64,000 nucleotides of DNA, taken from assembly GCA_030668875.1 (NCBI GenBank), contig DAOVER010000005.1, positions 26,597-90,596 on the forward strand, in the 5' to 3' direction. This DNA is from Candidatus Heimdallarchaeota archaeon (lineage in GTDB: Archaea; Asgardarchaeota; Heimdallarchaeia; Heimdallarchaeales; Heimdallarchaeaceae). A program made the translations under genes and the position numbers. The notes under the pieces were generated by a model, which worked only from the letters and a program-made list of their open reading frames with translations, did no database searches and was not told the DNA's origin. Each line of letters opens with the position of its first letter. The first letter of the stretch is position 1. Positions 12,795 to 54,934 of this stretch are shown in pieces.

Positions 12795-14111
12795 GTGTAT
12801 AGTATGAGCAAAAATAAGCAGGAGAAGACGGTTGAGCCTGAAATAAAGGAAGTTGAGGAACAATATGAAGAGCTCCTTATAGAAGAAGCTAGAAAAGAGA
12901 TGGTTGAATCAGATGAGATAGTCTCAATTTTAGAAATAAAGGATGTTCCTGGTTTAGGCAAAAAAAGTCAAGATGTCTTAGCTGATAATAATATATTAAC
13001 GATTGATCAATTGATGACAACAAGATTAATTGAATTGCAAGCAATGGGATTACAACGTGCTACGATCAAAAAAGCCCGTGCTGTAATCTCCAAATCAGTT
13101 GCAAAATACAAATATTTTAAGGAAGAATTGGGACTCGAGGATCTTCCAGGAGTTGGAAAATCAACTGCGGACATGTTACGCGAAAAGGGTTTGAATGTCT
13201 ACCTTCTTGAAACAACTCCTATTCGTGAACTAGAAGATAAGTATGGAATTACAGAAACTGCTTCAAAGAAGTATAAGGAAGGGTTAAGCGAGTTAAGAGG
13301 AGGGATTGACTTTGTTAGTGCTTTTGAAATAATGGAAAAACAAACGGACGCTCCCTCTTTCACCTATGGAATAAAGGCTTTAGATGCATTAACTACCATT
13401 GAGGAACTTGATGTATCGGGTGTGAGGCTAGGAGAAACATTAGAACTTTTTGGCCCGTTTAGATCTGGCAAATCACAGATCTGCCATCAACTTTGTGTAA
13501 CAGTACAATTGCCAACTGAATTAGGGGGGGTAGGAAAGAAAGCAGTTTTTATTGATACTGAAGGAACTTTCTCACCTAGTAGAATTAAGGCTGTTCATGC
13601 TAGATTACAGAGTGAACTCGGTTGGGAAAAGAGCTTTGAAGATGTCCTTAAGGACATAACTTATGCAAGAGCTTACAACTCAGACCATCAAATGAGTTTA
13701 GTAGAAAGACTACTTGAATTGTTCTACAATCATAAGGATGAGTATGGTTTTGTAGCTGTAGATTCAGCAACCGCACATTTCAGAGCTGAATATGCAGGCA
13801 GAGGAACGTTAGCTGAAAGACAACAAACAATCAATCATCATTTAGGCATATTAGGTAGACTAGCTGACACATACACTGTTGCTGTTGCAATAACGAATCA
13901 AGTTCAGTCAAATCCTGCAGCCTTCTTCGGTGATCCGACACAAGCTATTGGCGGGAATATTTTAGGTCATTGGGCAGTAACAAGATTTTATTTGAGAAAA
14001 TCAAAAGGTGAAAAACGAATAATAAGAATATATGATTCGCCGTATTTACCTGAATCAGAAGCAGTTTTCGCAATTACTCCAGAAGGCTGCATCGATGTAG
14101 AAGGCGGTTAA
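12795..14111 (+). CDS. radA: DNA repair and recombination protein RadA (duplicated N-terminal HhH region); likely true start is ATG at 12804
   Basis: Walker A GPFRSGKSQ within the RecA core, preceded by two HhH-like segments. Confidence 0.9.
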   Translation: MYSMSKNKQEKTVEPEIKEVEEQYEELLIEEARKEMVESDEIVSILEIKDVPGLGKKSQDVLADNNILTIDQLMTTRLIELQAMGLQRATIKKARAVISKSVAKYKYFKEELGLEDLPGVGKSTADMLREKGLNVYLLETTPIRELEDKYGITETASKKYKEGLSELRGGIDFVSAFEIMEKQTDAPSFTYGIKALDALTTIEELDVSGVRLGETLELFGPFRSGKSQICHQLCVTVQLPTELGGVGKKAVFIDTEGTFSPSRIKAVHARLQSELGWEKSFEDVLKDITYARAYNSDHQMSLVERLLELFYNHKDEYGFVAVDSATAHFRAEYAGRGTLAERQQTINHHLGILGRLADTYTVAVAITNQVQSNPAAFFGDPTQAIGGNILGHWAVTRFYLRKSKGEKRIIRIYDSPYLPESEAVFAITPEGCIDVEGG

Positions 14112-20129: not shown

Positions 20130-20783
20130 GTGAAATGTATGGGTCTACGTATCTTTTCAGTTAATAAAGATGGTAGTTTTTTCGAGGTTCCATCAGAGAA
20201 AGAGAGTTTTCTTCGCGGTGATGGAGCTTATTTGATTGTAGATAGAAAAGAAAAGAAGATATTCATCTATCGAAAAATGGGCATATCAAGTGCTTTAGCA
20301 TATTCAGCCGCTAGAGCAGCAACCAACCTTAATACACATAAGGGTTCTAGATACAAAATCATTAACATAGAGGAGGAAGAGAAGGATCGTATACTTCCAT
20401 CACTTTATCAGAGGCTAGATGTTTCGATTCCAAGTGAGATTAAAGAAAGTAAAGAAACTGCGATTGCCTCGAGAAATATTGTTTATGGTGAAACAACCAT
20501 TCCAGTTTTTGAAACAAAAAACTATTCTTCAAGCGTCCAAACTAAGAAAGAAGAGAGAGAAATACAACCTGTAAGAAAAATTCTTCAAATAGAGAAAGAG
20601 AAGGAGAGTTACAAAACTCAAAATATTGATGAGTTAGTTAAAACTTTGGCAAATCAGATTCTTTTTGAAACTAAATTAGACAAAGCCAAAAAAATGAATA
20701 AGCCAGCAAGACATATTCTGAAAGCTGAAATGGTTAAAAAGATAGATTCGTTATTAGATAATATCTATGAAGAGGACAACTAA
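20130..20783 (+). CDS. gelsolin-like domain protein with Lys/Glu-rich C-terminal extension
   Basis: FLRGDGAYLIVDRKEKKIFIYRKMGISSALAYSAARAA matches the gelsolin-repeat consensus (D.YiLD...iy.W.G..ss..E...A). Confidence 0.45.
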   Translation: MKCMGLRIFSVNKDGSFFEVPSEKESFLRGDGAYLIVDRKEKKIFIYRKMGISSALAYSAARAATNLNTHKGSRYKIINIEEEEKDRILPSLYQRLDVSIPSEIKESKETAIASRNIVYGETTIPVFETKNYSSSVQTKKEEREIQPVRKILQIEKEKESYKTQNIDELVKTLANQILFETKLDKAKKMNKPARHILKAEMVKKIDSLLDNIYEEDN

Positions 20784-22150
20784 TTACCCTCTTTCTGTAT
20801 TTTCGCAATGAAAAAACCTTCAGTTTCATGAAGGTGAGGATATAATTCTTGAGCTTTATTTTCCAATAGATTAGATTCTATGCCAATCATTGGTGAGGCT
20901 AGCATTAATGAAAAGTTTGAGTTGTTCTTGAGAAACTGTGAAATAATCTCATGATTTTCGTCTTCAAAGAGTGAACAAGTTGAATAAACAATACACCCAC
21001 CCACTTCAAGAAGCTTGGAGGCTTCATCAAGCAAAGCATTCTGTAGTTTAATATACCAATTAAGATCTCTCTGTTTCATTCTCCATTTAATATCAGGTCT
21101 TGAAGAATAAGTTCCTGATCCAGAGCATGGGGGATCAAGTAGAATTTTGTCAAAAGTTGATTTAACAGTTTTTTTTAGAGTTCTCGCGTCTGCTGATAAA
21201 ATTTTAACTTCTTCAGCACCTAACAATTTTAATCGATCAGTTAATATTTTCACTCTTTCCTTGTTTAAATCAACAGCCAAGATATTTTTTGCTGTACCAG
21301 CTTGAGCTACAATATGTGAAGTTTTTCCCCCTGGTGATGCGCACATATCGAGTATTTCCTCGCCTAGTTGTGGATTCAGAACTAGTGAAACCAAGGCAGA
21401 AGCTTTTTGCTGTATAACAAGCTTGCCTTCCTTAAATTCATCTAAACGTGGAATTGGTACAGGTGTTTCATCAATGCGTATAAGATTTGGTATAATTTCA
21501 ACAGGGGTGTACTTTATCTCATAGGTTGCAAGATTGTCAACAATCTCATCAAAAGATGCTTTTAGGGTATTAATTCTTACATACATCGGGATACTTTCAA
21601 GTAAGGATTGCAAAACTTTCTCTGTGAAATCTACTCCCCATTGTTTGATGAATTTCCTAATTATCCAAGTATAAGTAAAATACTTCAGAGAATATTTTGA
21701 GGGTAAATCTTCGCGATTCTCAAAGAGATTTTCTTCAGTTACTGATTGGATTAATTCTAACAAAGTGTCAAAAGACATTTGAGCAACGGAGCGATAGTAG
21801 GGTTCAAGCATAGTAACTACTTCGTCAACTGGTTTATTATTTACTTTCAACATGTGTGTAGCTATGCGTAATAGTGCTCTCATATCACTCTTTATTTTTT
21901 TCAGAGAGAAATTTGATGAGCTTGTTTTTATAAAAAGATCAATCCAGTTAAGTTTTCTATAAATCTCATTAGTATAATAATATAGAGTAGATTCTTCTTC
22001 TCTATCTAAATTATATTGATTAACGTGAAAACGTAAAACATTACGTAAAGATTTCCCATTATCTATATCTTCTAATGCAGACATAACTATAGGAATAATA
22101 GAATCCATCACATCCCAACTCTCTCTTCTGGAGTCATTGTCTCTTTTCAC
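20780..22150 (-). CDS. NOP2/Sun-family RNA (cytosine-C5)-methyltransferase
   Basis: DMCASPGGKT and DPPCSGSG catalytic motifs, with a NusB-like N-terminus. Confidence 0.8.
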   Translation of the reverse strand: MKRDNDSRRESWDVMDSIIPIVMSALEDIDNGKSLRNVLRFHVNQYNLDREEESTLYYYTNEIYRKLNWIDLFIKTSSSNFSLKKIKSDMRALLRIATHMLKVNNKPVDEVVTMLEPYYRSVAQMSFDTLLELIQSVTEENLFENREDLPSKYSLKYFTYTWIIRKFIKQWGVDFTEKVLQSLLESIPMYVRINTLKASFDEIVDNLATYEIKYTPVEIIPNLIRIDETPVPIPRLDEFKEGKLVIQQKASALVSLVLNPQLGEEILDMCASPGGKTSHIVAQAGTAKNILAVDLNKERVKILTDRLKLLGAEEVKILSADARTLKKTVKSTFDKILLDPPCSGSGTYSSRPDIKWRMKQRDLNWYIKLQNALLDEASKLLEVGGCIVYSTCSLFEDENHEIISQFLKNNSNFSLMLASPMIGIESNLLENKAQELYPHLHETEGFFIAKIQKEGN

Positions 22151-23268: not shown

Positions 23269-23491
23269 TATTTTCTTAAACATGTTTATTTGACTAATGA
23301 ATATGTTTTTCTCTATTAAGCAAATACTTAAAAAAATCTTATCTGCATCCTTCTTGAAGTCATTGGTATCTTCTACATATAGATGCTAGGCGAAGCTCGC
23401 TGGAGATAGATGTCTCCCTTTCTACAAACTTGTAGAACGATGAGCTCCACAACTCCGGGTTGTGGAAGAAAAAACGAACAAAAGTGATAAT

Positions 23492-23938
23492 ATGTCATTT
23501 CGCCATTTAGTTAGGATAAAGTCTACCGATTTAGAGGGTCATTTACCTGTTTCTTTAGGACTTTCTAAAATCGGAGGTGTTAACAGAAGGTTAGCACAGA
23601 CAATTGTAAAAACATTGAATATTCCTTATACTGAACGTATCGGTACTCTTACCGATGTTAAAGTTAAGGAAATAGAAAGCGTTATTTCTGATCCCGTTGC
23701 TGCAGGTATCCCTGTGTGGATGATTAATCGAAGAAAAGATCGTCAAACTGGTGATAATTTACACATAACAGAGGCCAAACTCATTCTTCAGACAAAACAA
23801 GATATTGAAAGATATATCAAGATTCGATGCCGTCGAGGAATTCGCCATCAGTTCAAATTAAAAGTCAGAGGTCAAAAGACCCGAACTCATGGTGGTACTG
23901 GTACGACTGTAGGCGTATCTAAGAGAAGACAAAGGTAA
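23492..23938 (+). CDS. rps13: 30S ribosomal protein S13 (uS13)
   Basis: MSFRHLVRI...NRRKD...G.RH motifs. The track ORF starts earlier, at a GTG at 23462. Confidence 0.9.
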   Translation: MSFRHLVRIKSTDLEGHLPVSLGLSKIGGVNRRLAQTIVKTLNIPYTERIGTLTDVKVKEIESVISDPVAAGIPVWMINRRKDRQTGDNLHITEAKLILQTKQDIERYIKIRCRRGIRHQFKLKVRGQKTRTHGGTGTTVGVSKRRQR

Positions 23939-23943
23939 TTATT

Positions 23944-25221
23944 ATGGGTGGAATTAAGAGAAAAAGAAAGAAAATCGAAACGCCAGGTCATCCTTATGAT
24001 AAAGCTCGCTTAGAGAGAGAACTCCCTCTTGTTGGTGCTTATGGTTTAAGAAACAAGCGCGAATTATGGAAAGCAAGAACTATTCTTTCTACAGCTAGAC
24101 AACAAGCTAGAGGCTTACTAGCTCTTGACCCTGAAATTAGAAAAGTTAGAGAACAAGAACTTCTTTCAAGACTCTCTCGTTTTGGTATGTTATCTCAGAA
24201 TAGCAATCTTGACTCTGTTTTAGCACTTGAAATTAAAGTCATTCTTGAAAGAAGACTTCAAACAATTGTATTCAGAAAAGGTTTAGCATCCTCTCCGTAC
24301 CAAGCTCGTCAATTTATTGCTCACAGACACATAGCTATTGGAACTGGTGTTGCAACATCTCCTAGCAGATTAATCACAATAGCTGAAGAGGAGATAGTCA
24401 ACTACGCTCCCCGTTCTCCACTGAATGATCAAACTCATCCTTCGCGACCTCAAGCACCTCCTGCTTTTGATGCGGGGCAACCTGAGAAAAGGGAAGAACA
24501 TAAGCGTGAAAGAACTGGAAGAGATGGCAAACCTAGAAGGAAAGAAGCTCCAAAGAAGGAAACTAAACCAGGAGTTAAACCAAAACCAGAGGTAAAGAAG
24601 GAAACTCCAAAGAAAGAAGCTCCAAAGAAGGAAACTAAACCAGGAGTTAAACCAAAACCAGAGGTAAAGAAGGAAACTCCAAAGAAAGAAGTTCCAAAGA
24701 AGGAAACTCCAAAACCAGAGGTAAAGAAGGAAACTCCAAAGAAAGAAGTTCCAAAGAAGGAAACTCCAAAACCAGAGGTAAAGAAGGAAACTCCAAAACC
24801 AGAGGTAAAAAAGGAAACTCCAAAACCAGAGGTTAAAACAAAGCCAGAAGTGAAGAAAGAGGTTCCAAAGAAGGAAACTAAACCAGAAGTTAAAACAAAG
24901 CCAGAGGTAAAGAAGGAAACTCCAAAACCAGAGGTAAAGAAGGAAACTCCAAAACCAGAGGTTAAAACAAAGCCAGAAGTAAAGAAAGAAGCTCCAAAGA
25001 AGGAAACTAAAATCTCTGACCTTGACATCTCTTTGATAAAAGGTATTGGTGCAAAAACTGCCATGCTTCTCAAAGAAAATGGCTTTGATACTGTTGGTAA
25101 GATTGCTAAGGCAACTACTGAAGAACTTTCCAAAGTTCCAGGTGTTGGTCCCGCTACTGCATCAGCTATGAATAGTGAAGCTAAAGTTTTGCTTTCAAAG
25201 AAAGCTGAGGATAAGAAGTAG
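23944..25221 (+). CDS. rps4: 30S ribosomal protein S4 (uS4) with ~245-aa C-terminal extension: Lys-rich KPEVKKETPK repeats plus a helix-hairpin-helix module
   Basis: Canonical archaeal S4 N-terminus MGGIKRKRKKIETPGHPYD...GLRNKRELWK, then repeats, then IKGIGAKTA...VPGVGPATA HhH. Confidence 0.85.
   Translation: MGGIKRKRKKIETPGHPYDKARLERELPLVGAYGLRNKRELWKARTILSTARQQARGLLALDPEIRKVREQELLSRLSRFGMLSQNSNLDSVLALEIKVILERRLQTIVFRKGLASSPYQARQFIAHRHIAIGTGVATSPSRLITIAEEEIVNYAPRSPLNDQTHPSRPQAPPAFDAGQPEKREEHKRERTGRDGKPRRKEAPKKETKPGVKPKPEVKKETPKKEAPKKETKPGVKPKPEVKKETPKKEVPKKETPKPEVKKETPKKEVPKKETPKPEVKKETPKPEVKKETPKPEVKTKPEVKKEVPKKETKPEVKTKPEVKKETPKPEVKKETPKPEVKTKPEVKKEAPKKETKISDLDISLIKGIGAKTAMLLKENGFDTVGKIAKATTEELSKVPGVGPATASAMNSEAKVLLSKKAEDKK
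24541..25010 (+). repeat. in-frame tandem repeat (30/60/72-nt units) encoding KPEVKKETPK-type Lys/Pro/Glu-rich repeats inside the S4 gene
   Basis: Repeated ccaaaaccagaggtaaagaaggaaactccaaag units are visible directly. Confidence 0.7.
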
Positions 25222-25228
25222 GTGAAGT

Positions 25229-25714
25229 ATGATGAGTAAAAAAGAAGAAACTAAAGTTAAATCTGAAGAAAAGTCTGAAGAAAAAACTGAAACAACAGAA
25301 TCTTCGCGACCTGAGCGACCAAGAAGAAGAGAATCTAAACACGGGATAGCACATATCTTTTCAAGCTATAATGACACAATCATCCACATAACAGACATCT
25401 CTGGAGCTGAAACATTCAGCCGTAAAAGTGGAGGAATGTTTGTGAAAGCAGACAGAAATGAATCAAGTCCTTATGCAGCAATGAAAGCAGCAAACGCAGC
25501 AGCACAAGAATCGCAAGCAAAAGGAATATATCAACTGTATGTAAGATATAGGGCACCAGGAGGACATAAAAATAGAACTCCAGGACCAGGAACACAAGCA
25601 GCATTACGTGCACTGAAAAGATCAGGAATGAGAATAATAAGACTAGAAGATGTAACTCCATTGCCACACAATGGTTGTAGGAGAAAGGGTGGCCGTAGAG
25701 GCCGTAGAATGTAG
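25229..25714 (+). CDS. rps11: 30S ribosomal protein S11 (uS11) with ~30-aa K/E-rich N-terminal extension
   Basis: GIAHIF.S.NDTIIH...[22 protein letters not shown]. Confidence 0.9.
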
Positions 25715-25805: not shown

Positions 25806-26252
25806 ATGACAATTACTAAAGCTAAAATATTTGCATGTGAAATCTGTGGGAAAGAGTTTGGAAGAAAGGACAATCTAGGAAGGCACAAAATAACAGTTCA
25901 TTCCAAATCACAGAAGCATAAATGTCCAAAGTGCAATTTTTCTTCAACAAGAAAAGATAGTCTTGATAAACATATCAAAGAAGTTCACAGTGAAGTAAAG
26001 CAATATTCTTGTAAAATGTGTGGAGAAAGGTTCACACAAAAAGGGAGTATGGAAAGGCATATAGATTCCTCTCATAAAGACGTTTTTTCTTTTGCATGTC
26101 CCAAATGCAATTCAATTTTCTCAAGAAAAGATAGCTTGTTACGACATATCAGAAGTGTGCACGAAGGTATAAGACCTCACAAATGTTCAGAATGTGGTAA
26201 AAGCTTTCAACATAAACATCATCTGAAGGATCACCTAATTTTAGGTCATTGA
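25806..26252 (+). CDS. tandem C2H2 zinc-finger protein (5 fingers)
   Basis: Five C-x2-C-x12-H-x4-H units, e.g. CEICGKEFGRKDNLGRHKITVH. Confidence 0.8.
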   Translation: MTITKAKIFACEICGKEFGRKDNLGRHKITVHSKSQKHKCPKCNFSSTRKDSLDKHIKEVHSEVKQYSCKMCGERFTQKGSMERHIDSSHKDVFSFACPKCNSIFSRKDSLLRHIRSVHEGIRPHKCSECGKSFQHKHHLKDHLILGH

Positions 26253-26261
26253 GGGAAGGAA

Positions 26262-27425
26262 ATGAGTAACTCGGAAAAAATAATAATGCGACCAACTTGT
26301 GAAATCTGCGGTCTTAGTTTTTCAAGAAAAGACAGTTTGTATAGACACAAACGATCAGTTCATTCAGAGTCAAAGAAATATAGCTGTACAGAATGCAATC
26401 TCACATTTTCTCGTAAAGATACACTGGATCGTCACATCAATGATGTCCACAAACAAATAAGGAAATATATTTGTACCATATGTGACGAGAAGTTCAAACA
26501 AGCGGGTGCTCTAAAAAGACATATCCAAACAATGCATGAGAAGAATATTAGTTATGAATGTCCAAACTGTGATGCAGCATTCCCGCGTAAAGACAACCTA
26601 GACAGACACATAAATGCCGTTCATTTAAACCTCCGACCCCACATTTGCCAGGAATGTGGTGCAGCTTTCAAACTACCTGATCACCTTAAGCAGCACATTA
26701 TTTCCATACATACTGACCGGCGTCAATATGTTTGTGATGAATGTGGTTTTGCTTTCAAACTTCGTCAACATCTAAATGATCATGTCAAAGTTGTTCACCT
26801 AGGTCTTCGTTCTTATGCTTGTGAGGAATGTGATTCTTCTTTTGCTCATGCTCGTGCTCTTAAGCAACACATTATTTCTGTTCATACCGATGAACTTCCT
26901 TATGTTTGCGAGAAATGTAAGAGAGGATTTGCAGATCCTAGTCATCTATATAGGCATGAAAAAGCTGAAGCTTGTTGGTTTACAACTACTACTGCCTACA
27001 AATGGGAAGAGCTTTGTAAAGAGATAGCTGAGATTCTTTTAGAGGAAAAGAATTGGGAGTGGAAACCTACTATAGAAACACCTGAGTTGGTTGAACAGAC
27101 TAGAGTGCAGCCTGAGATTGTTATCTATAATGATGATGGTACGATGGATTTTATCGATGCTAAGAGGTCTACTTATGCTATTTTCAAGGAGAAGGATCTG
27201 GTAGTTTATCCTAAGGTGGCTAGGAGGGTGGAGTTCTGGTGCCTCTACGGTAAAACCAAGGGGATATTTGAAGAGGAGGAAGGGGTGGAAGCGAAATCAA
27301 GTGAAGAAATCATTGGCAAACTAGAAAAGGAAGATTCGCATGATGGACAGAGAGTAAGGAATCTAATAATGAAGATTAGTTTATTGAAAAAGGGAATAAG
27401 ATTTGAAGGACAACAGACACTGTAG
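26262..27425 (+). CDS. tandem C2H2 zinc-finger protein (~9 fingers) with ~140-aa non-finger C-terminal domain
   Basis: Repeated C-x2-C-x12-H-x4-H units through to ~aa 240. Confidence 0.8.
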   Translation: MSNSEKIIMRPTCEICGLSFSRKDSLYRHKRSVHSESKKYSCTECNLTFSRKDTLDRHINDVHKQIRKYICTICDEKFKQAGALKRHIQTMHEKNISYECPNCDAAFPRKDNLDRHINAVHLNLRPHICQECGAAFKLPDHLKQHIISIHTDRRQYVCDECGFAFKLRQHLNDHVKVVHLGLRSYACEECDSSFAHARALKQHIISVHTDELPYVCEKCKRGFADPSHLYRHEKAEACWFTTTTAYKWEELCKEIAEILLEEKNWEWKPTIETPELVEQTRVQPEIVIYNDDGTMDFIDAKRSTYAIFKEKDLVVYPKVARRVEFWCLYGKTKGIFEEEEGVEAKSSEEIIGKLEKEDSHDGQRVRNLIMKISLLKKGIRFEGQQTL

Positions 27426-49559: not shown

Positions 49560-50105
49560 TTAATTTTCTGCTTTGTCAGAATCTGCTAATTCATCGAGAT
49601 CAAGATCCTCATCTAATTCGAAATCGTCTTCGAAATCGTCACCAATATCATCTTCAAGTAATTCGTATTCTTCCTCAAGCGATGTTGCGTCAAGCATATC
49701 ACCAATTTCATCTATAGTTGCAGGTGGGTTCAAAACCTTAAGTCCCAAATCAGCTGCATTGTCTAGAATCATTTGCCTCTTACGAGCACCAACGGTGTGC
49801 TTAATCATAACTGCTTCAGTTTCTTTATCTATTTCTTCAAGTTCATAGATATTAGCAACATGAACTACTTGATAACCCGAAGGATGCAGACCTCTGACAG
49901 CTTTTGGTCCCCGGTATCCTATGCTGACCATAGCAGGATAACCTTTGCGTTTTTCTTTCATTTTATTATCAATACCCTTAGGTTTACGCCAGCTTTTTTT
50001 TACTCTCTTGTAACGCCAGCTTTCTTGCCTAACAAAGTTAGGTCTACGAGCACTGATTTCTTTACGCTTTTTTAGTAAACGTTTCTTATCGACTGTCATA
50101 GGCAC
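49560..50105 (-). CDS. rpl32e: 50S ribosomal protein L32e (eL32) with ~50-aa acidic C-terminal tail
   Basis: RRPNFVRQESWRYKRV...GYR core. Confidence 0.8.
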   Translation of the reverse strand: MPMTVDKKRLLKKRKEISARRPNFVRQESWRYKRVKKSWRKPKGIDNKMKEKRKGYPAMVSIGYRGPKAVRGLHPSGYQVVHVANIYELEEIDKETEAVMIKHTVGARKRQMILDNAADLGLKVLNPPATIDEIGDMLDATSLEEEYELLEDDIGDDFEDDFELDEDLDLDELADSDKAEN

Positions 50106-50271: not shown

Positions 50272-51651
50272 ATGGAATCGAAGAAATTGGACTTATTTGA
50301 TTCAATGTCTTCAAGAGTAAGTATCCCATTTAATCTTAAGGTAATTTATACTTCTTTGTTTGCTATTCTTTATCTCATATTTCTAAATATACCCATTTTC
50401 GGCGTGCCTAGTTCAGGAGGAACTGATCCTTTTTTTGCTTTCAGAGTCATTATGGCATCTCAGAGAGGAAGTTTGGCAGAGTTTGGTATTTTTCCGCTTG
50501 TATACGCATCTTTCATTATGCATGTATTGGTGGGGTTAGGAATTTACAAAATGGATTTCACACAAGCAGAGAAGAGAAAGAAGTTTTCGATTATAGTTAC
50601 TATTCTGGGGTTGTTTTTCTCTCTCACATCATCTTTATGTTATGTAATTTTTGGTGCTTATGGAGAGATAAGTGTTGATCAAGGTTTTATAATCATTCCT
50701 CAATTATTGCTTGCTAGTACTCTTATAATAATAATTGACTATTTCATGAGAAAAGGGTACGGATTGAGCTCTGGTGTAAGCTTGTTTATAGTAGTCAGTG
50801 TTTCACGAACTATCTTTGATGGTATGTTCAGTTTAAGTCAATTAAGAGTTGGAGGTTTTGATTGGTACAGAGGTTGTATTCTCGCATTCATTCAAGGTAT
50901 CTTTAAAGAAGACCCAGATATACTGACACCACTCATCAGACCGGGTTTAACACCTGATTTTCTGGGATTCATTTTAGCAATTATAGTGTTTGGAATGACG
51001 ATATTCTTTGTATCCTTTACCATAAAGAGACCATTCTATCAGAGAGATCAAATTACAAAATCATCGATGACAGCTCAATCATTATACAACTATTCTAATT
51101 CCGTAGTAATAACCAGTTCATTTTTTGCAAATATTTCCTTCGTTTCAAATATGATGTTTAATACATGGAGCTCATTTTCAACGGGATTTAGAAGTTTGTT
51201 GGTTAGTTTCTTCGGTAGATGGGAGACGATAGAAGGCACGAATCAGCTAGCTCCAGTTTCGGGGCTAGCGGCTTTTACAACCCCTCCATATGGGGTTGAA
51301 CAAATTACACAACATCCGTGGAATACTTCGGTGTATTTTCTATTTATGATTGTATATAGTATCCTTATGTCTAGATTATTAGTAAAAACATCAGGAAAGG
51401 AAAATGTAAGTATTCTAAAAGGAACAGACATATTTAATCAAGAAAAATATGAAGTCACTAATTTCCCTTTAGCATTATTAGCTGGTTTTTTCATGGGGTT
51501 TTTAGCAGGGTTTTTTAACATCATTTCTCCATTGGGAACAGGAGTAGGTATTCTAATAACAACGTGCATACTGAAACAACTCTTGGACATCATTTCCCAT
51601 GAAAAATCCAAATGGAATGAATCAAGAAAAAATACGGAAATTAATAAATAA
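50272..51651 (+). CDS. divergent SecY paralog (SecY2-like), antisense to the flanking r-protein genes
   Basis: NIPIFGVPSSGGTDPFFAFRVIMASQRGSLAEFGI aligns with canonical SecY, but the plug/TM2 region is divergent (FPLVYASFIMHVLVG). 459 aa. Confidence 0.75.
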   Translation: MESKKLDLFDSMSSRVSIPFNLKVIYTSLFAILYLIFLNIPIFGVPSSGGTDPFFAFRVIMASQRGSLAEFGIFPLVYASFIMHVLVGLGIYKMDFTQAEKRKKFSIIVTILGLFFSLTSSLCYVIFGAYGEISVDQGFIIIPQLLLASTLIIIIDYFMRKGYGLSSGVSLFIVVSVSRTIFDGMFSLSQLRVGGFDWYRGCILAFIQGIFKEDPDILTPLIRPGLTPDFLGFILAIIVFGMTIFFVSFTIKRPFYQRDQITKSSMTAQSLYNYSNSVVITSSFFANISFVSNMMFNTWSSFSTGFRSLLVSFFGRWETIEGTNQLAPVSGLAAFTTPPYGVEQITQHPWNTSVYFLFMIVYSILMSRLLVKTSGKENVSILKGTDIFNQEKYEVTNFPLALLAGFFMGFLAGFFNIISPLGTGVGILITTCILKQLLDIISHEKSKWNESRKNTEINK

Positions 51652-53406: not shown

Positions 53407-54161
53407 TTCTTATCACCTTCGTTACCAGCAATTGTTACACTTGGAGTATCATTGCCCACAATGAAAATATATCTGAACAGTGTAACGAAAATCTCACCAT
53501 CAGGTGTCTTTATGGTCGCTGTTTTAGTTTTTTGTGTTCCATGAGAACTGATTTCTTCAATAGTTCCATGCTTACCCATCCACCTTCCACTAGTTACAAT
53601 ACCATAATTACCTATTTTCAATTCGTATTTTTCTAAAATCTTTTGATCTGGTAAAGATATCTTAACTGTGTCATGTGTATGGTAAGGAACACTATCGCTT
53701 TCAGATTTCTGTAAGATGATGTTTCTACCATCATGGAGATTTAGTTGTGTTAGACCTCCTTTGAGTGTAGTCTTATTCTTAATTTGGCAGAGTTTAACTT
53801 TTGTTTCATCTTCCTTAATTGGAATTGTCCTTAGACCTTTCTTCGGAGTATATACTAATCTATAATGTTCTTTTATTTTTGGGAAGGAAATAACATCCAT
53901 GAAACCTAGTGGGTATTTTCTGTTTGTTTTTATTTTTCCATCTATGAGAACATTTCTTTCAACCAATATACGTTTAACTTCACTCATGTTTCGAGCTACT
54001 CGGAACATATCACGGAGCATAATGGCCATTGGAATACATTCATGTGCAGCATGAGGACCAGGAGAGGGTTTAACCGTATAAGTATTAGCTTTCTTTTCAA
54101 TAGGTATATGTTTTGAAACAACGAATCTCTTCAGATGTCGTTTTCCACCGCCTTTTGTCAT
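53403..54161 (-). CDS. rps4e: 30S ribosomal protein S4e (eS4)
   Basis: GGKRHLKR N-terminus, KOW region. Confidence 0.9.
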   Translation of the reverse strand: MTKGGGKRHLKRFVVSKHIPIEKKANTYTVKPSPGPHAAHECIPMAIMLRDMFRVARNMSEVKRILVERNVLIDGKIKTNRKYPLGFMDVISFPKIKEHYRLVYTPKKGLRTIPIKEDETKVKLCQIKNKTTLKGGLTQLNLHDGRNIILQKSESDSVPYHTHDTVKISLPDQKILEKYELKIGNYGIVTSGRWMGKHGTIEEISSHGTQKTKTATIKTPDGEIFVTLFRYIFIVGNDTPSVTIAGNEGDKK

Positions 54162-54934
54162 ACTAATTCCTCCTTTTTATCTGTTTTCTCAGAAAGCAAA
54201 TCTTCTGCGTTAGCACTCATAGTTTTTGCTGTACCAGGACCAATACCAGGTACTTTTGAAAGCTCTTCTGAGGTTGCTTTGGCAATCTTATCAACAGTAT
54301 CAAAACCATTTTCTTTGAGAAGCATTGCGGTTTTAGCACCTATGCCCTTAATCATAGATATGTCAAGGTCAGAAACTTTGGTCTCCTCCTTGGGAGCTGC
54401 TTCTACAACATCTTTAGGAGCATCAGTTTCGTCAAGATCTTCGAATTCTTCAAAAATATCCTCTTCAAGATCTTCATCTTCTTCTTCGACATCAGATTCT
54501 TCTAAAGGCTCATCGAATTCATCAAATAGATCTTCAGTTAATTCTTCTTCAGTAAGTTCTTTTCTAGAACGTCTCTTAATGATCTCCCTTCTCTTTTTAT
54601 CACGTAAATTCAGAGAAGTAATTATGATGTTGCTTGGATGAACAGGAAAACTAGAGACTGTACCATCAGCTTTTTCCTTACTATATCCTTCGATATGAAC
54701 TGAATATTTCTGAGGTAAAACACGGATTACTTTACCTTTAATCTCTTGGTCTTCAGATTTAGCTCTGAAAACCAGTACTTTGTCATCTTTATGTACAGGA
54801 AGACGTCGAATACCATATTTATTTCTCAATTCACGTGAGAGAAGAGCAGTCATTTGACGATTGCGAAGATGTAAAGGAGCAGTATAATACCTCTTACGTT
54901 GTTTACGAGGTTGTTTTGTTTTTGTATATCTCAT
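54158..54934 (-). CDS. rpl24: 50S ribosomal protein L24 (uL24) with acidic linker and C-terminal helix-hairpin-helix module
   Basis: KOW DDKVLV..GK..G.V core, then D/E-rich stretch, then IKGIGAKTAMLLKENGFDTV...VPGIGPGTA. Confidence 0.85.
   Translation of the reverse strand: MRYTKTKQPRKQRKRYYTAPLHLRNRQMTALLSRELRNKYGIRRLPVHKDDKVLVFRAKSEDQEIKGKVIRVLPQKYSVHIEGYSKEKADGTVSSFPVHPSNIIITSLNLRDKKRREIIKRRSRKELTEEELTEDLFDEFDEPLEESDVEEEDEDLEEDIFEEFEDLDETDAPKDVVEAAPKEETKVSDLDISMIKGIGAKTAMLLKENGFDTVDKIAKATSEELSKVPGIGPGTAKTMSANAEDLLSEKTDKKEELV

What the first reader, a model, noticed from the sequence alone, without database searches (positions are those of the whole stretch)
23944..25221. Ribosomal protein S4 fused to Lys-rich tandem repeats and a helix-hairpin-helix module; the same HhH module is also fused to L24
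The S4 ORF is ~425 aa, against ~180 aa for typical archaeal S4. After the S4 domain comes ~190 aa of KPEVKKETPK-type repeats (histone-H1-tail-like), then an HhH motif (IKGIGAKTAMLLKENGFDTV...VPGVGPATA). L24 (54158-54934, minus strand) ends with an acidic linker and a ~90% identical HhH module (IKGIGAKTAMLLKENGFDTVDKIAKATSEELSKVPGIGPGTA). The two HhH-coding segments (~25015-25170 and ~54215-54375, inverted) are ~88% identical in DNA. Non-specific nucleic-acid-binding HhH tails on two different r-proteins, kept nearly identical, suggest a lineage-specific ribosome decoration, for example extra rRNA/mRNA tethering or surface interaction.
Basis: seen in the sequence. Interest (0 to 1): 0.6.

Follow-up and report, generated by a model that had tools for sequence, protein, structure and literature searches.

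The report
DNA-repair-type clasp tethered to two ribosomal proteins
In a group of Heimdall archaea, close relatives of eukaryotes, ribosomal proteins uS4 and uL24 each carry a small Rad51-like nucleic-acid-binding domain on a long floppy charged tether, and the uL24 copy has repeatedly been copied from the uS4 one, which points to a selected but still untested ribosome add-on.

Summary
ORF 23944-25221 is a true archaeal uS4. It continues into a ~187-aa disordered Lys/Pro/Glu linker built of 27-nt tandem repeats and ends in a 70-aa (HhH)2 domain. ORF 54158-54934 is a true uL24, with a 61-aa acidic linker (net charge -28) and the same domain.

The domain matches Pfam HHH_5 and folds like the Rad51/RadA N-terminal domain. 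Its nearest ribosomal precedent is the N-terminal HhH domain of haloarchaeal eL32.

Assembly chimerism is excluded, because many independent Heimdallarchaeota assemblies show both architectures.

The uS4 tail is ancestral to a large Heimdallarchaeaceae-type clade. The uL24 tail is patchy and polyphyletic. In each of three lineages it most resembles the uS4 tail of that same lineage, and one pair shares 150 identical nucleotides, so it was copied or converted from the resident uS4 tail at least two or three times.

In this window the two copies are old paralogs (dS 0.92, dN/dS 0.09, 83% DNA identity rather than 88%). Selection, not recent homogenisation, keeps them alike.

Function is inferred: a flexible, sequence-independent duplex-nucleic-acid anchor, possibly linking the two assembly-nucleating r-proteins or their subunits to DNA and transcription. 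I found no published description.

The parts
23944..25221 (+). Complete uS4 gene with tail (425 aa), in the operon uS13-uS4-uS11
   Evidence: ORF. NCBIfam uS4_arch equivalog at 187 bits. The start lies 6 nt after the uS13 stop, and uS11 starts 8 nt after the S4 stop.
23944..24453 (+). uS4 core (aa 1-170)
   Evidence: PRK04051 and uS4_arch models cover aa 1-171 and 1-160. Pfam S4 domain covers aa 103-145.
24454..25014 (+). Disordered Lys/Pro/Glu linker (aa 171-357). The tandem-repeat array KPEVKKETP (27-nt unit) is aa 206-346 (nt 24559-24981).
   Evidence: TRF arrays at 24540-25011. Repeat block has K49, E28, P29 and net charge +21. AF2 pLDDT is ~40 over aa 190-350. Repeat number varies between close relatives, 327-403 aa.
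25015..25221 (+). (HhH)2 module of uS4 (aa 358-425). The HHH_5 match is aa 365-413 (nt 25036-25182).
   Evidence: Pfam HHH_5 at E 4e-13. AF2 pLDDT is 80-92. Foldseek top hits are Rad51/RadA N-terminal domains. Independent assembly is identical.
54158..54934 (-). Complete uL24 gene with tail (258 aa), in the operon uL14-uL24-eS4. Its stop overlaps the eS4 start.
   Evidence: ORF. rplX_A_E equivalog at 125 bits. An identical protein, P0156, is found in NCBI and in Logan contigs.
54569..54934 (-). uL24 core (aa 1-122)
   Evidence: Pfam Ribosomal_L26 covers aa 6-122 at 103 bits.
54386..54568 (-). Acidic linker of uL24 (aa 123-183; D11, E21, net -28)
   Evidence: Composition. The same acidic tail is present in Heimdall uL24s that lack the HhH module.
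54158..54385 (-). (HhH)2 module of uL24 (aa 184-258). The HHH_5 match is aa 191-239 (nt 54364-54218). The module is preceded by 'APKEETKV', a remnant of the uS4-type repeat.
   Evidence: Pfam HHH_5 at E 2e-13. DNA homology to the S4 tail extends upstream into the 'GCTCCAAAGAAGGAAACTAAA' repeat unit.
23462..23938 (+). uS13 gene (context, same operon)
   Evidence: ORF. The orthologous neighbour carries PF00416 in related loci.
25229..25714 (+). uS11 gene (context), with a ~38-aa K/E-rich N-terminal extension
   Evidence: Pfam Ribosomal_S11 covers aa 39-157.

Best explanation
WHAT IT IS (shown). This is a lineage-specific ribosome decoration. A ~70-aa (HhH)2 domain of the Rad51/RadA-N-terminal-domain type hangs from the C-termini of uS4 and uL24 on long, intrinsically disordered, highly charged tethers. 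The uS4 tether is a net-positive Lys/Pro/Glu repeat array. The uL24 tether is a strongly acidic stretch.

EVOLUTION (shown). The uS4 tail is ancestral to a large clade of Heimdallarchaeaceae-type archaea. The uL24 tail was created at least two or three times by copying or converting the tail of the resident uS4 gene into the end of the pre-existing acidic uL24 tail, and occasional gene conversion continues. Both copies are under strong purifying selection.

HOW IT MOST LIKELY WORKS (inferred). The domain keeps both canonical G-h-G hairpins, so it most likely grips the phosphate backbone of duplex nucleic acid without sequence specificity. On a tether of tens of nanometres it would act as a fly-cast anchor. 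I think the most likely target is chromosomal DNA or the transcription complex. That would hold free uS4 and uL24, the proteins that nucleate small- and large-subunit assembly on the 5' domains of nascent rRNA, and later the subunits themselves, close to the template. This would favour co-transcriptional ribosome assembly and/or transcription-coupled translation.

ROUGH ODDS.
- Architecture and evolutionary history: ~0.95.
- 'Duplex nucleic-acid anchor' of any kind: ~0.5.
- The DNA/transcription-coupled version specifically: ~0.3.
The confidence value given for this explanation (0.4) refers to the functional mechanism, not to the architecture.
For: Identity of the parts:
- Equivalog-level matches for uS4 and uL24, with operon context.
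- HHH_5 scores above cut-off in both tails.
- In a 26-sequence tail alignment (A4), G16, G18, K20, T21, A22, M23, P48, G49 and G51 are invariant. These are the two hairpins.
- The AF2 model has pLDDT 80 and superposes on the RadA/Rad51 N-terminal domain at 0.8-1.6 A over 56-61 residues with 33-36% identity. NusA AR and RNAP alpha-CTD follow as more distant hits.
- PDB and NCBIfam sequence matches are to the RadA N-terminal domain and to the long haloarchaeal eL32.
- The linker is predicted disordered.

The feature is real and selected:
- Full-length uS4-HhH occurs in L004, L008, L012, L015 and L019 and in more than 30 protein clusters.
- uL24-HhH occurs in ~24 clusters.
- Both fusions sit on one scaffold in another lineage.
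- dN/dS is 0.05-0.2 in all comparisons.

Copying from uS4 to uL24:
- In the module tree and group distances, each uL24 group is nearest the uS4 group of its own lineage: C 998/1000 bootstraps, B 648/1000, and A tied between A- and E-type uS4. The uL24 groups lie 0.33-0.44 from each other.
- HhH-bearing uL24s form three clades interleaved with HhH-less ones.
- The uL24 module carries a remnant of the uS4 repeat.
- P0248 (uS4) and P0169 (uL24) share 150 nt at 100% identity.
- P0260 is a uS4 with a uL24-type C-terminal end.

Function (inference):
- The same module family is appended to other nucleic-acid machines: Topo VI-A, Rpo6, eL32 and an eL33-like protein.
- uS4 nucleates 30S assembly on the 16S 5' domain, sits at the mRNA entry site, and in bacteria associates with RNAP as a NusA-like rrn antitermination factor (PMC10931766).
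- uL24 is the 'assembly initiator' on domain I of 23S rRNA and helps co-transcriptional folding (PMC13351717).
- eL32 and eL33 are early nucleolar binders in yeast (PMC9932298).
Against: - No binding data exist, and nothing here distinguishes DNA from RNA or from a protein partner.
- Domains of this fold also mediate protein contacts (NusA AR, RNAP alpha-CTD, Rad51 N-terminal domain).
- The uL24 module is net -3 and sits behind a -28 linker, which should disfavour nucleic-acid binding or mask it.
- Many related genomes carry the tail on uS4 only, and some not at all (P0273/P0275 and the outgroups P0284/P0285/P0290). It is therefore dispensable.
- The assembly-initiator argument rests on bacterial data. 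The haloarchaeal eL32 precedent has no known function.
- Whether the tails survive on mature ribosomes is unknown.
Confidence: 0.4

Rival explanations
1. Intra-ribosomal or mRNA tether. The HhH module binds structured RNA: an rRNA helix or expansion segment on the subunit surface (Heimdallarchaeota have an enlarged ES39), or duplex regions of incoming mRNA near the uS4-lined entry channel. It would stabilise the particle or assist unwinding.
For: - HhH-like folds do bind rRNA inside the ribosome. Ribosomal_S13 shares the motif, with a weak cross-hit.
- uS4 lies at the mRNA entry site (PMC10931766).
- Heimdallarchaeota LSU rRNA carries a 115-132-nt ES39 (PMC7594248).
Against: - A ~187-aa disordered tether of variable repeat number (327-425 aa among close relatives) is not what a fixed structural contact needs.
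- No SSU expansion segments were found in Lokiarchaeota, the only SSU statement in PMC7594248.
- The nearest homologues of the module are DNA-handling domains.
- uS4 and uL24 sit on different subunits at distant sites, yet they use the same module.
Confidence: 0.2
2. Protein-docking or self-association module. The two (HhH)2 domains recruit a common partner such as RNAP, a chaperone or a hibernation factor. Alternatively they pair with each other, helped by oppositely charged linkers, to bridge subunits or cluster ribosomes.
For: - uL24 repeatedly takes the resident uS4 module rather than any other HhH in the genome. Selection for identical partner specificity would produce this.
- The linkers have opposite net charge, +21 against -28.
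- NusA AR and RNAP alpha-CTD, which are protein-binding (HhH)2 domains, are structural neighbours.
Against: - Several lineages have the module on uS4 only (P0240 with P0201, and P0252 with P0187; same-contig inference). The function therefore cannot depend on a uS4-uL24 pair.
- Copying from uS4 may simply reflect recombination between GA/AAG-rich low-complexity DNA in two highly expressed genes.
- No partner was identified.
Confidence: 0.2
3. Neutral domain accretion. The tails are tolerated passengers without a specific function, spread by repeat-mediated recombination.
For: - The distribution on uL24 is patchy.
- There are losses and replacements by plain Lys-rich repeats: P0188 and P0212 (uL24), P0273 and P0275 (uS4).
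- Linkers are hypervariable.
Against: - The module is strongly conserved across all lineages, with dN/dS 0.05-0.2 while synonymous sites are near saturation.
- The hairpin residues are invariant.
- The module is retained on uS4 throughout a large clade.
Confidence: 0.05
4. Assembly or annotation artefact. The tails are chimeric joins, or are separated from the cores by undetected frameshifts.
For: - Contigs often break in the repeat array.
- Some public sequences are clearly chimeric or frameshifted there: P0003, P0239, P0244 and P0040.
- The exact 425-aa product is not on record elsewhere.
Against: - There are continuous ORFs for both fusions in many independent assemblies, projects and lineages.
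- Operon spacing is tight, leaving no room for a separate gene.
- Logan contigs are identical for the uL24 gene and for the uS4 3' end.
Confidence: 0.01

Closest known systems
Haloarchaeal eL32 with an N-terminal (HhH)2 domain (H. marismortui 50S entries 1JJ2/1S72; 9L94 series; NCBIfam NF009401 'PRK12766'). Related eL32 forms from metagenomes carry 2-4 copies (P0015, P0039, P0052, P0061).
   Same: - A ribosomal protein carries a homologous HHH_5 domain joined by a charged, presumably disordered linker. The profile match is E 4.6e-6 to 9l94_Q and 1.7e-4 to 1s72_Y; see also NF009401 and Pfam.
- Its function is likewise unknown. From my own recollection, that part of the chain is not modelled in the classic 50S crystal structures.
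   Different: - The host protein differs (eL32 rather than uS4 and uL24), and the domain is N-terminal rather than C-terminal.
- The lineage differs (Halobacteria and others rather than Heimdallarchaeia).
- There is no evidence there for the same module on a second r-protein, or for intragenomic copying.
N-terminal domain of Rad51/RadA recombinases
   Same: It is the best sequence and structure match: 1pzn at E 9e-7, and rmsd 0.8-1.6 A with 33-36% identity. It is a five-helix (HhH)2 fold, known from the literature (my knowledge) to contact DNA and partner proteins.
   Different: - There is no RecA-type ATPase core behind it.
- The window's own RadA (12795-14111) has a separate, only weakly similar N-terminal region. 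The tail is therefore not a recent copy of the resident recombinase domain.
Histone-H1-like Lys-rich extensions on ribosomal proteins (mosquito RpS6 and RpL23a), and KKE/D Lys-rich IDRs of snoRNP proteins
   Same: These are low-complexity Lys-rich tails appended to ribosomal or ribosome-assembly proteins. They evolved independently and are of variable length (references listed in PMC11764897; PMC11528048).
   Different: - Those tails carry no folded domain at their end.
- The uS4 linker here is a K/E/P polyampholyte, not an Ala/Lys-rich H1 tail, and it gave no H1-type or HC2-type Pfam match.
HhH arrays used as processivity or salt-tolerance anchors on DNA enzymes (Topo V; here also Topo VI-A and Rpo6 fusions)
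   Same: The design principle is the same: sequence-independent HhH units appended to a nucleic-acid machine. Topo VI-A with 4-7 units (P0007, P0021) and Rpo6 with 2 units (P0022) were found with the same profile. The Topo V precedent is from my own knowledge.
   Different: Those hosts act on DNA, so the target is obvious. A ribosomal host has no obvious DNA substrate.
Bacterial NusA AR domains and RNAP alpha-CTD in transcription-translation coupling and rrn antitermination
   Same: They are (HhH)2 domains on flexible linkers that connect transcription complexes with partners, and they are structural neighbours of the module (8y5l_NA, 5lm9, 3gfk_B). Bacterial uS4 is itself a NusA-like factor on RNAP (PMC10931766).
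   Different: The similarity is distant (19-26% identity, rmsd 2.7-4.6 A). These are bacterial systems. No evidence links the archaeal tails to RNAP.

Membership tests
Archaeal uS4 (ribosomal protein S4/S9) | Full-length match to the archaeal uS4 equivalog model above its curated cut-off | tested here: met
   TIGR01018 uS4_arch at 187.3 bits (cut-off 82.25) and NF003139 at 213.5 bits (cut-off 138), covering aa 1-171. Pfam S4 domain at 40.6 bits (cut-off 22.8). The N-terminal Pfam model scores just below its cut-off, 20.4 against 23.
Archaeal uS4 (ribosomal protein S4/S9) | Conserved operon position uS13-uS4-uS11 | tested here: met
   The same order is seen in related loci L001, L028, L033 and L036.
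Archaeal/eukaryotic uL24 (L24P/L26) | Match to the equivalog and Pfam models above cut-off, and position uL14-uL24-eS4 | tested here: met
   TIGR01080 at 124.8 bits (cut-off 47.65). PF16906 at 103.4 bits (cut-off 28.8). Neighbours are shown.
(HhH)2 domain, Pfam HHH_5 (PF14520) | Score above the gathering threshold, and two G-h-G hairpins each flanked by helices | tested here: met
   50.0 and 51.2 bits against a cut-off of 27. G16, G18, G49 and G51 are invariant in the 26-sequence tail alignment. The helix pattern appears in the AF2 models.
(HhH)2 domain, Pfam HHH_5 (PF14520) | Five-helix fold superposable on solved (HhH)2 domains | tested here: met
   Foldseek against the PDB gives Rad51/RadA N-terminal domains at TM (query) 0.67-0.75 and rmsd 0.8-1.6 A. 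E-values are modest (3.6e-3) because the domain is short.
(HhH)2 domain, Pfam HHH_5 (PF14520) | Sequence-independent binding of duplex nucleic acid | not testable with these tools
   Needs gel-shift, NMR or structural work.
Rad51/RadA recombinase | RecA-type ATPase core following the N-terminal domain | tested here: not met
   Only model positions ~3-60 of the RadA equivalogs are matched, far below cut-off (28-34 bits against 259-361). The genuine RadA lies elsewhere in the window, at 12795-14111.
r-protein + HHH_5 fusions (haloarchaeal long eL32 type) | A homologous HHH_5 module covalently joined to a bona fide ribosomal protein through a charged linker | tested here: met
   The host protein and the terminus differ, so this is the same kind of fusion but not the same family.
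Histone H1 / HC2-type Lys-rich tail | Recognisable homology to H1 C-terminal-domain or HC2 models | tested here: not met
   The window's S4 gave no such Pfam match at E <= 0.1. The resemblance is compositional only. One related uL24 (P0188) does carry PF07382 in the precomputed list.

The most novel reading that the evidence does not exclude
The tails form a prokaryotic forerunner of nucleolus-like organisation. The two proteins that nucleate small- and large-subunit assembly carry a DNA-gripping domain. They also carry block-charged disordered regions, a K/E-rich one on uS4 and a D/E tract on uL24 (and on eL32). Together these would concentrate nascent ribosome assembly on, or next to, transcribing rDNA/chromatin, possibly through charge-driven condensation, in the archaeal lineage closest to eukaryotes.
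Probability: 0.07. Interest if true: 0.9.

Novelty: new variant of a known kind. Interest (0 to 1): 0.55.

Why it matters
Ribosomal proteins are among the most conservative proteins known, so a folded DNA-repair-type domain added to two of them is unusual. That holds all the more because it was added repeatedly and is under purifying selection.

The carriers are Heimdallarchaeia, the closest known archaeal relatives of eukaryotes. Their ribosomes already show eukaryote-like rRNA expansion.

If the domain ties ribosomal subunits, or the assembly-nucleating proteins uS4 and uL24, to DNA or to the transcription machinery, it would be a new physical link between transcription and ribosome biogenesis or translation in archaea. 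It would also give a function to the long-unexplained HhH domain of haloarchaeal eL32.

Two practical points follow:
- The repeat-plus-module cassette is a recurrent cause of contig breaks and chimeric proteins in Asgard metagenome assemblies.
- It is a clean natural example of intragenomic domain copying and gene conversion between unlinked essential genes.

Tried and rejected
1. Chimeric assembly or hidden frameshift. Rejected: many independent assemblies give continuous ORFs, and Logan contigs are identical. However, the exact repeat count of this window could not be corroborated.

2. Recent gene conversion as the reason the two copies look alike in this window. Rejected: dS is 0.92, with 24 synonymous differences among the 58 codons whose amino acid is the same. 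Conversion is seen in another lineage. It is only hinted at in the window's own lineage, where P0166 and P0238 share GCT-AAT and GTC codons.

3. The tail is a copy of the resident RadA N-terminal domain. Rejected: only 8/24 identities in a single hairpin.

4. Further copies of the module in the window. None were found. The weak hit at 12876-13130 is the RadA N-terminal region.

5. A single origin of the uL24 fusion. Not supported by the module tree, the group distances or the uL24 core tree. A full bootstrap neighbour-joining run timed out and was replaced by a group-distance bootstrap. Lineage B support is only 65%.

6. The antisense ORF 24450-25133 and the terminator-like hits on the minus strand within the repeats. 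These are low-complexity by-products of the repeat array, not features.

7. Literature. Eight full-text searches and several targeted reads found no description of HhH tails on Heimdall uS4 or uL24, and no functional study of the eL32 HhH domain. Absence from this library is not proof of absence.

8. The first, word-index protein search with the tail alone returned only six fragments. The exhaustive profile search and the full-length searches were needed.
Full report
**Observation**

- ORF 23944-25221 (+) encodes 425 aa.
  - Residues 1-171 match the archaeal uS4 equivalog models well above cut-off, and the S4 domain is found by Pfam.
  - The gene sits between uS13 and uS11, with 6- and 8-nt spacers.
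- ORF 54158-54934 (-) encodes 258 aa.
  - Residues 6-122 are Ribosomal_L26/rplX_A_E.
  - The gene lies between uL14 and eS4, and its stop overlaps the eS4 start.
- Both proteins end in a Pfam HHH_5 domain (E 4e-13 and 2e-13).
- The uS4 linker is a tandem-repeat array with a 27-nt unit and higher-order 57-, 72- and 129-nt units at 24540-25011.
  - The repeat block holds 49 Lys, 28 Glu and 29 Pro in 141 aa, with net charge +21.
- The uL24 linker is 61 aa with 32 acidic residues, net charge -28.
- The two tails hit each other at E 3e-34, and the window has no third copy.

**The feature is not an artefact**

A profile of the tail found 19 loci in species-representative genomes, all labelled Candidatus Heimdallarchaeota.
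- Five carry complete uS4-linker-HhH genes and three carry complete uL24-acidic-linker-HhH genes. One pair is on a single contig of MAG 7H_bin003.
- Protein searches added more than 30 uS4-HhH clusters and about 24 uL24-HhH clusters.
- The window's uL24 is present identically in NCBI and in Logan short-read contigs.
- The uS4 3' end and the junction to uS11 are reproduced at 100% by a Logan contig that stops inside the repeats.
- Contigs frequently break in the repeat array, and a few public proteins are visibly chimeric or frameshifted there (P0003, P0239, P0244, P0040).
- The exact 425-aa product is not on record. It is the longest among close relatives (327-403 aa). The architecture is therefore secure, but the repeat count is not.

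**What the module is**

- AlphaFold predicts the last ~70 residues confidently, both without an alignment (pLDDT ~90) and with a 26-sequence alignment (pLDDT 80). The linker is predicted disordered (pLDDT ~40).
- Foldseek places the module on the N-terminal domain of Rad51/RadA (rmsd 0.8-1.6 A over 56-61 residues, 33-36% identity). NusA AR domains and the RNAP alpha-CTD are more distant neighbours.
- Sequence searches agree. The best PDB match is the P. furiosus Rad51 N-terminal domain, followed by the N-terminal region of haloarchaeal eL32. NCBIfam shows partial matches to RadA and to the long 'PRK12766' eL32 model.
- Both G-h-G hairpins and the residues after the first hairpin (K-T-A-M) are invariant across 26 tails.
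- The window's own RadA (12795-14111) has a different, only weakly similar N-terminal region. The tail is not a recent copy of it.

**Wider context**

An exhaustive profile search of 1.84 billion representative proteins found the same module type appended to many archaeal hosts:
- Topo VI subunit A, with 4-7 copies.
- RNA polymerase subunit Rpo6.
- eL32, with 1-4 copies.
- A protein that I read by eye as eL33-like (not confirmed by Pfam).
- uS4 and uL24.

An HhH domain on a ribosomal protein is therefore a known kind of fusion; haloarchaeal eL32 has sat in the PDB since the first 50S structures. The uS4 and uL24 hosts, the C-terminal position and the tether design are new as far as I could find. 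Eight full-text searches and targeted reading found no description of them, including a 2023 paper on Asgard r-protein clusters, the Asgard expansion-segment paper and a 2026 Asgard review.

**Evolution**

*uS4.* On a uS4 core tree, the HhH-bearing proteins form one large clade.
- Most tail-less members of that clade are partial sequences cut by contig ends.
- P0273 and P0275 are true exceptions: they keep a Lys-rich tail without the module.
- The outgroups P0284, P0285, P0290 and P0293 have short tails only.

*uL24.* All Heimdall-type uL24s have the acidic tail, but only three separate clades (A, which includes the window, plus B and C) carry the module. HhH-less relatives are interleaved, and P0188 and P0212 carry Lys-rich repeats instead.

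*The uL24 modules are not each other's relatives.* Each is nearest the uS4 module of its own lineage:

| uL24 group | Nearest uS4 group | Mean p-distance | Bootstrap support |
|---|---|---|---|
| C | C | 0.18 | 998/1000 |
| B | B | 0.31 | 648/1000 |
| A | A and E, tied | 0.25 | 505 / 487 of 1000 |

Between uL24 groups the distance is 0.33-0.44.

*Further signs of copying:*
- The junctions differ between lineages.
- The window's uL24 module still carries a piece of the uS4 repeat ('APKEETKV', DNA homology).
- In lineage C, one uS4 (P0248) and one uL24 (P0169) share 150 nt at 100% identity plus 36 nt upstream.
- By contrast, a same-scaffold pair in a related genome is only 65-71% identical.
- One uS4 (P0260) ends with a uL24-type C-terminus.
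- In the window's own lineage, P0166 (uL24) shares genome-specific codons with its uS4. This is suggestive only.

*This window.* The two copies are old paralogs under purifying selection, not recently homogenised: 42/50 amino acids identical, dS 0.92, dN 0.083, dN/dS 0.09.

*Conclusion.* The uS4 tail is ancestral. The uL24 tail arose by copying or conversion from the resident uS4 tail at least two or three times, and exchange in both directions continues sporadically.

**How it probably works (inference)**

- The preserved hairpins argue that the module still grips a phosphate backbone.
- The long, variable, disordered tethers argue for a reach-and-hold role rather than a fixed structural contact.
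- The same module family is used by DNA enzymes and RNA polymerase.
- uS4 nucleates 30S assembly on the 16S 5' domain and lines the mRNA entry site. In bacteria it also rides on RNAP as a NusA-like rrn antitermination factor (PMC10931766).
- uL24 is the 'assembly initiator' on domain I of 23S rRNA and aids co-transcriptional folding (PMC13351717).
- The other r-protein hosts, eL32 and eL33, are early binders in yeast (PMC9932298).

The reading I favour is a DNA- or transcription-complex anchor that keeps these early binders, and later the subunits, near the template.

Weak points:
- The uL24 copy is embedded in a strongly acidic context.
- Many genomes manage with the uS4 copy alone or with none.
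- (HhH)2 domains can also be protein-binding modules.
- The assembly-initiator data are bacterial.

The rivals remain open: RNA binding on the ribosome or on mRNA, and protein docking or self-association. Neutral accretion is unlikely given the selection signal.

**Verdict**

This is a real, selected and apparently undescribed decoration of the ribosome in a Heimdallarchaeaceae-type clade. It is a new variant of a known kind of fusion (r-protein + HhH). Its history of repeated intragenomic copying is unusual, and its function is testable but unproven.

Noticed in passing
window 25806-26252 and 26262-27425 (+): Two genes directly downstream of uS11 encode arrays of classical C2H2 zinc fingers (Pfam zf-C2H2 at E 3e-27 and 2e-43). 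They occupy the position where archaea usually have rpoD. A C2H2 zinc-finger gene also follows uS11 in a distant relative (L028), so the linkage looks conserved.
   Followed up: partly
window 49560-50105 (-): eL32 carries a ~50-aa strongly acidic C-terminal tail. Together with uL24, that makes two large-subunit proteins with D/E tracts, while the small-subunit proteins uS4 and uS11 carry K/E-rich extensions.
   Followed up: partly
window 25229-25714 (+); L001 364-1113: uS11 has a ~38-aa K/E/S-rich N-terminal extension. In another Heimdall MAG (GCA_021399335) the uS11 gene is 249 aa long.
   Followed up: no
window 12795-14111 (+): The RadA/Rad51 homologue is 438 aa. It has an unusually long N-terminal region holding two degenerate HhH-like units before the ATPase core. 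A related representative (P0091) has two clear HHH_5 units.
   Followed up: partly
window 50272-51651 (+): A SecY-like gene (Sec61 plug domain) lies on the opposite strand inside the r-protein cluster, between uL6 and eL32. The same inversion next to uL6 is seen in lineage C (L030).
   Followed up: no
P0007, P0021, P0022 (metagenome representatives): Topoisomerase VI subunit A proteins carry 4-7 N-terminal (HhH)2 units, and an RNA polymerase Rpo6 carries two C-terminal units. Their source organisms are unknown.
   Followed up: partly
P0003, P0239, P0040, P0244: Some public protein records join the uS4 tail to unrelated sequence: antisense of uS11, a bacterial outer-membrane efflux protein, or a UvrD-like fragment. 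Another (P0244) runs out of frame through the module. The repeat-plus-module cassette seeds chimeras and frameshifts in metagenome assemblies.
   Followed up: partly
P0188, P0212 (uL24); P0273, P0275 (uS4); P0013, P0268, P0271 (uS4): The tails are highly plastic. Some uL24s carry 'PTAKK' or 'APKAKTPK' Lys-rich repeats instead of the module. Some uS4s keep only Lys-rich repeats. Some uS4 linkers contain an additional acidic block.
   Followed up: partly
window 20780-22150 (-): An RsmB/NOP2-type rRNA methyltransferase with an N-terminal NusB-like domain lies about 1.3 kb upstream of the uS13-uS4-uS11 operon.
   Followed up: no
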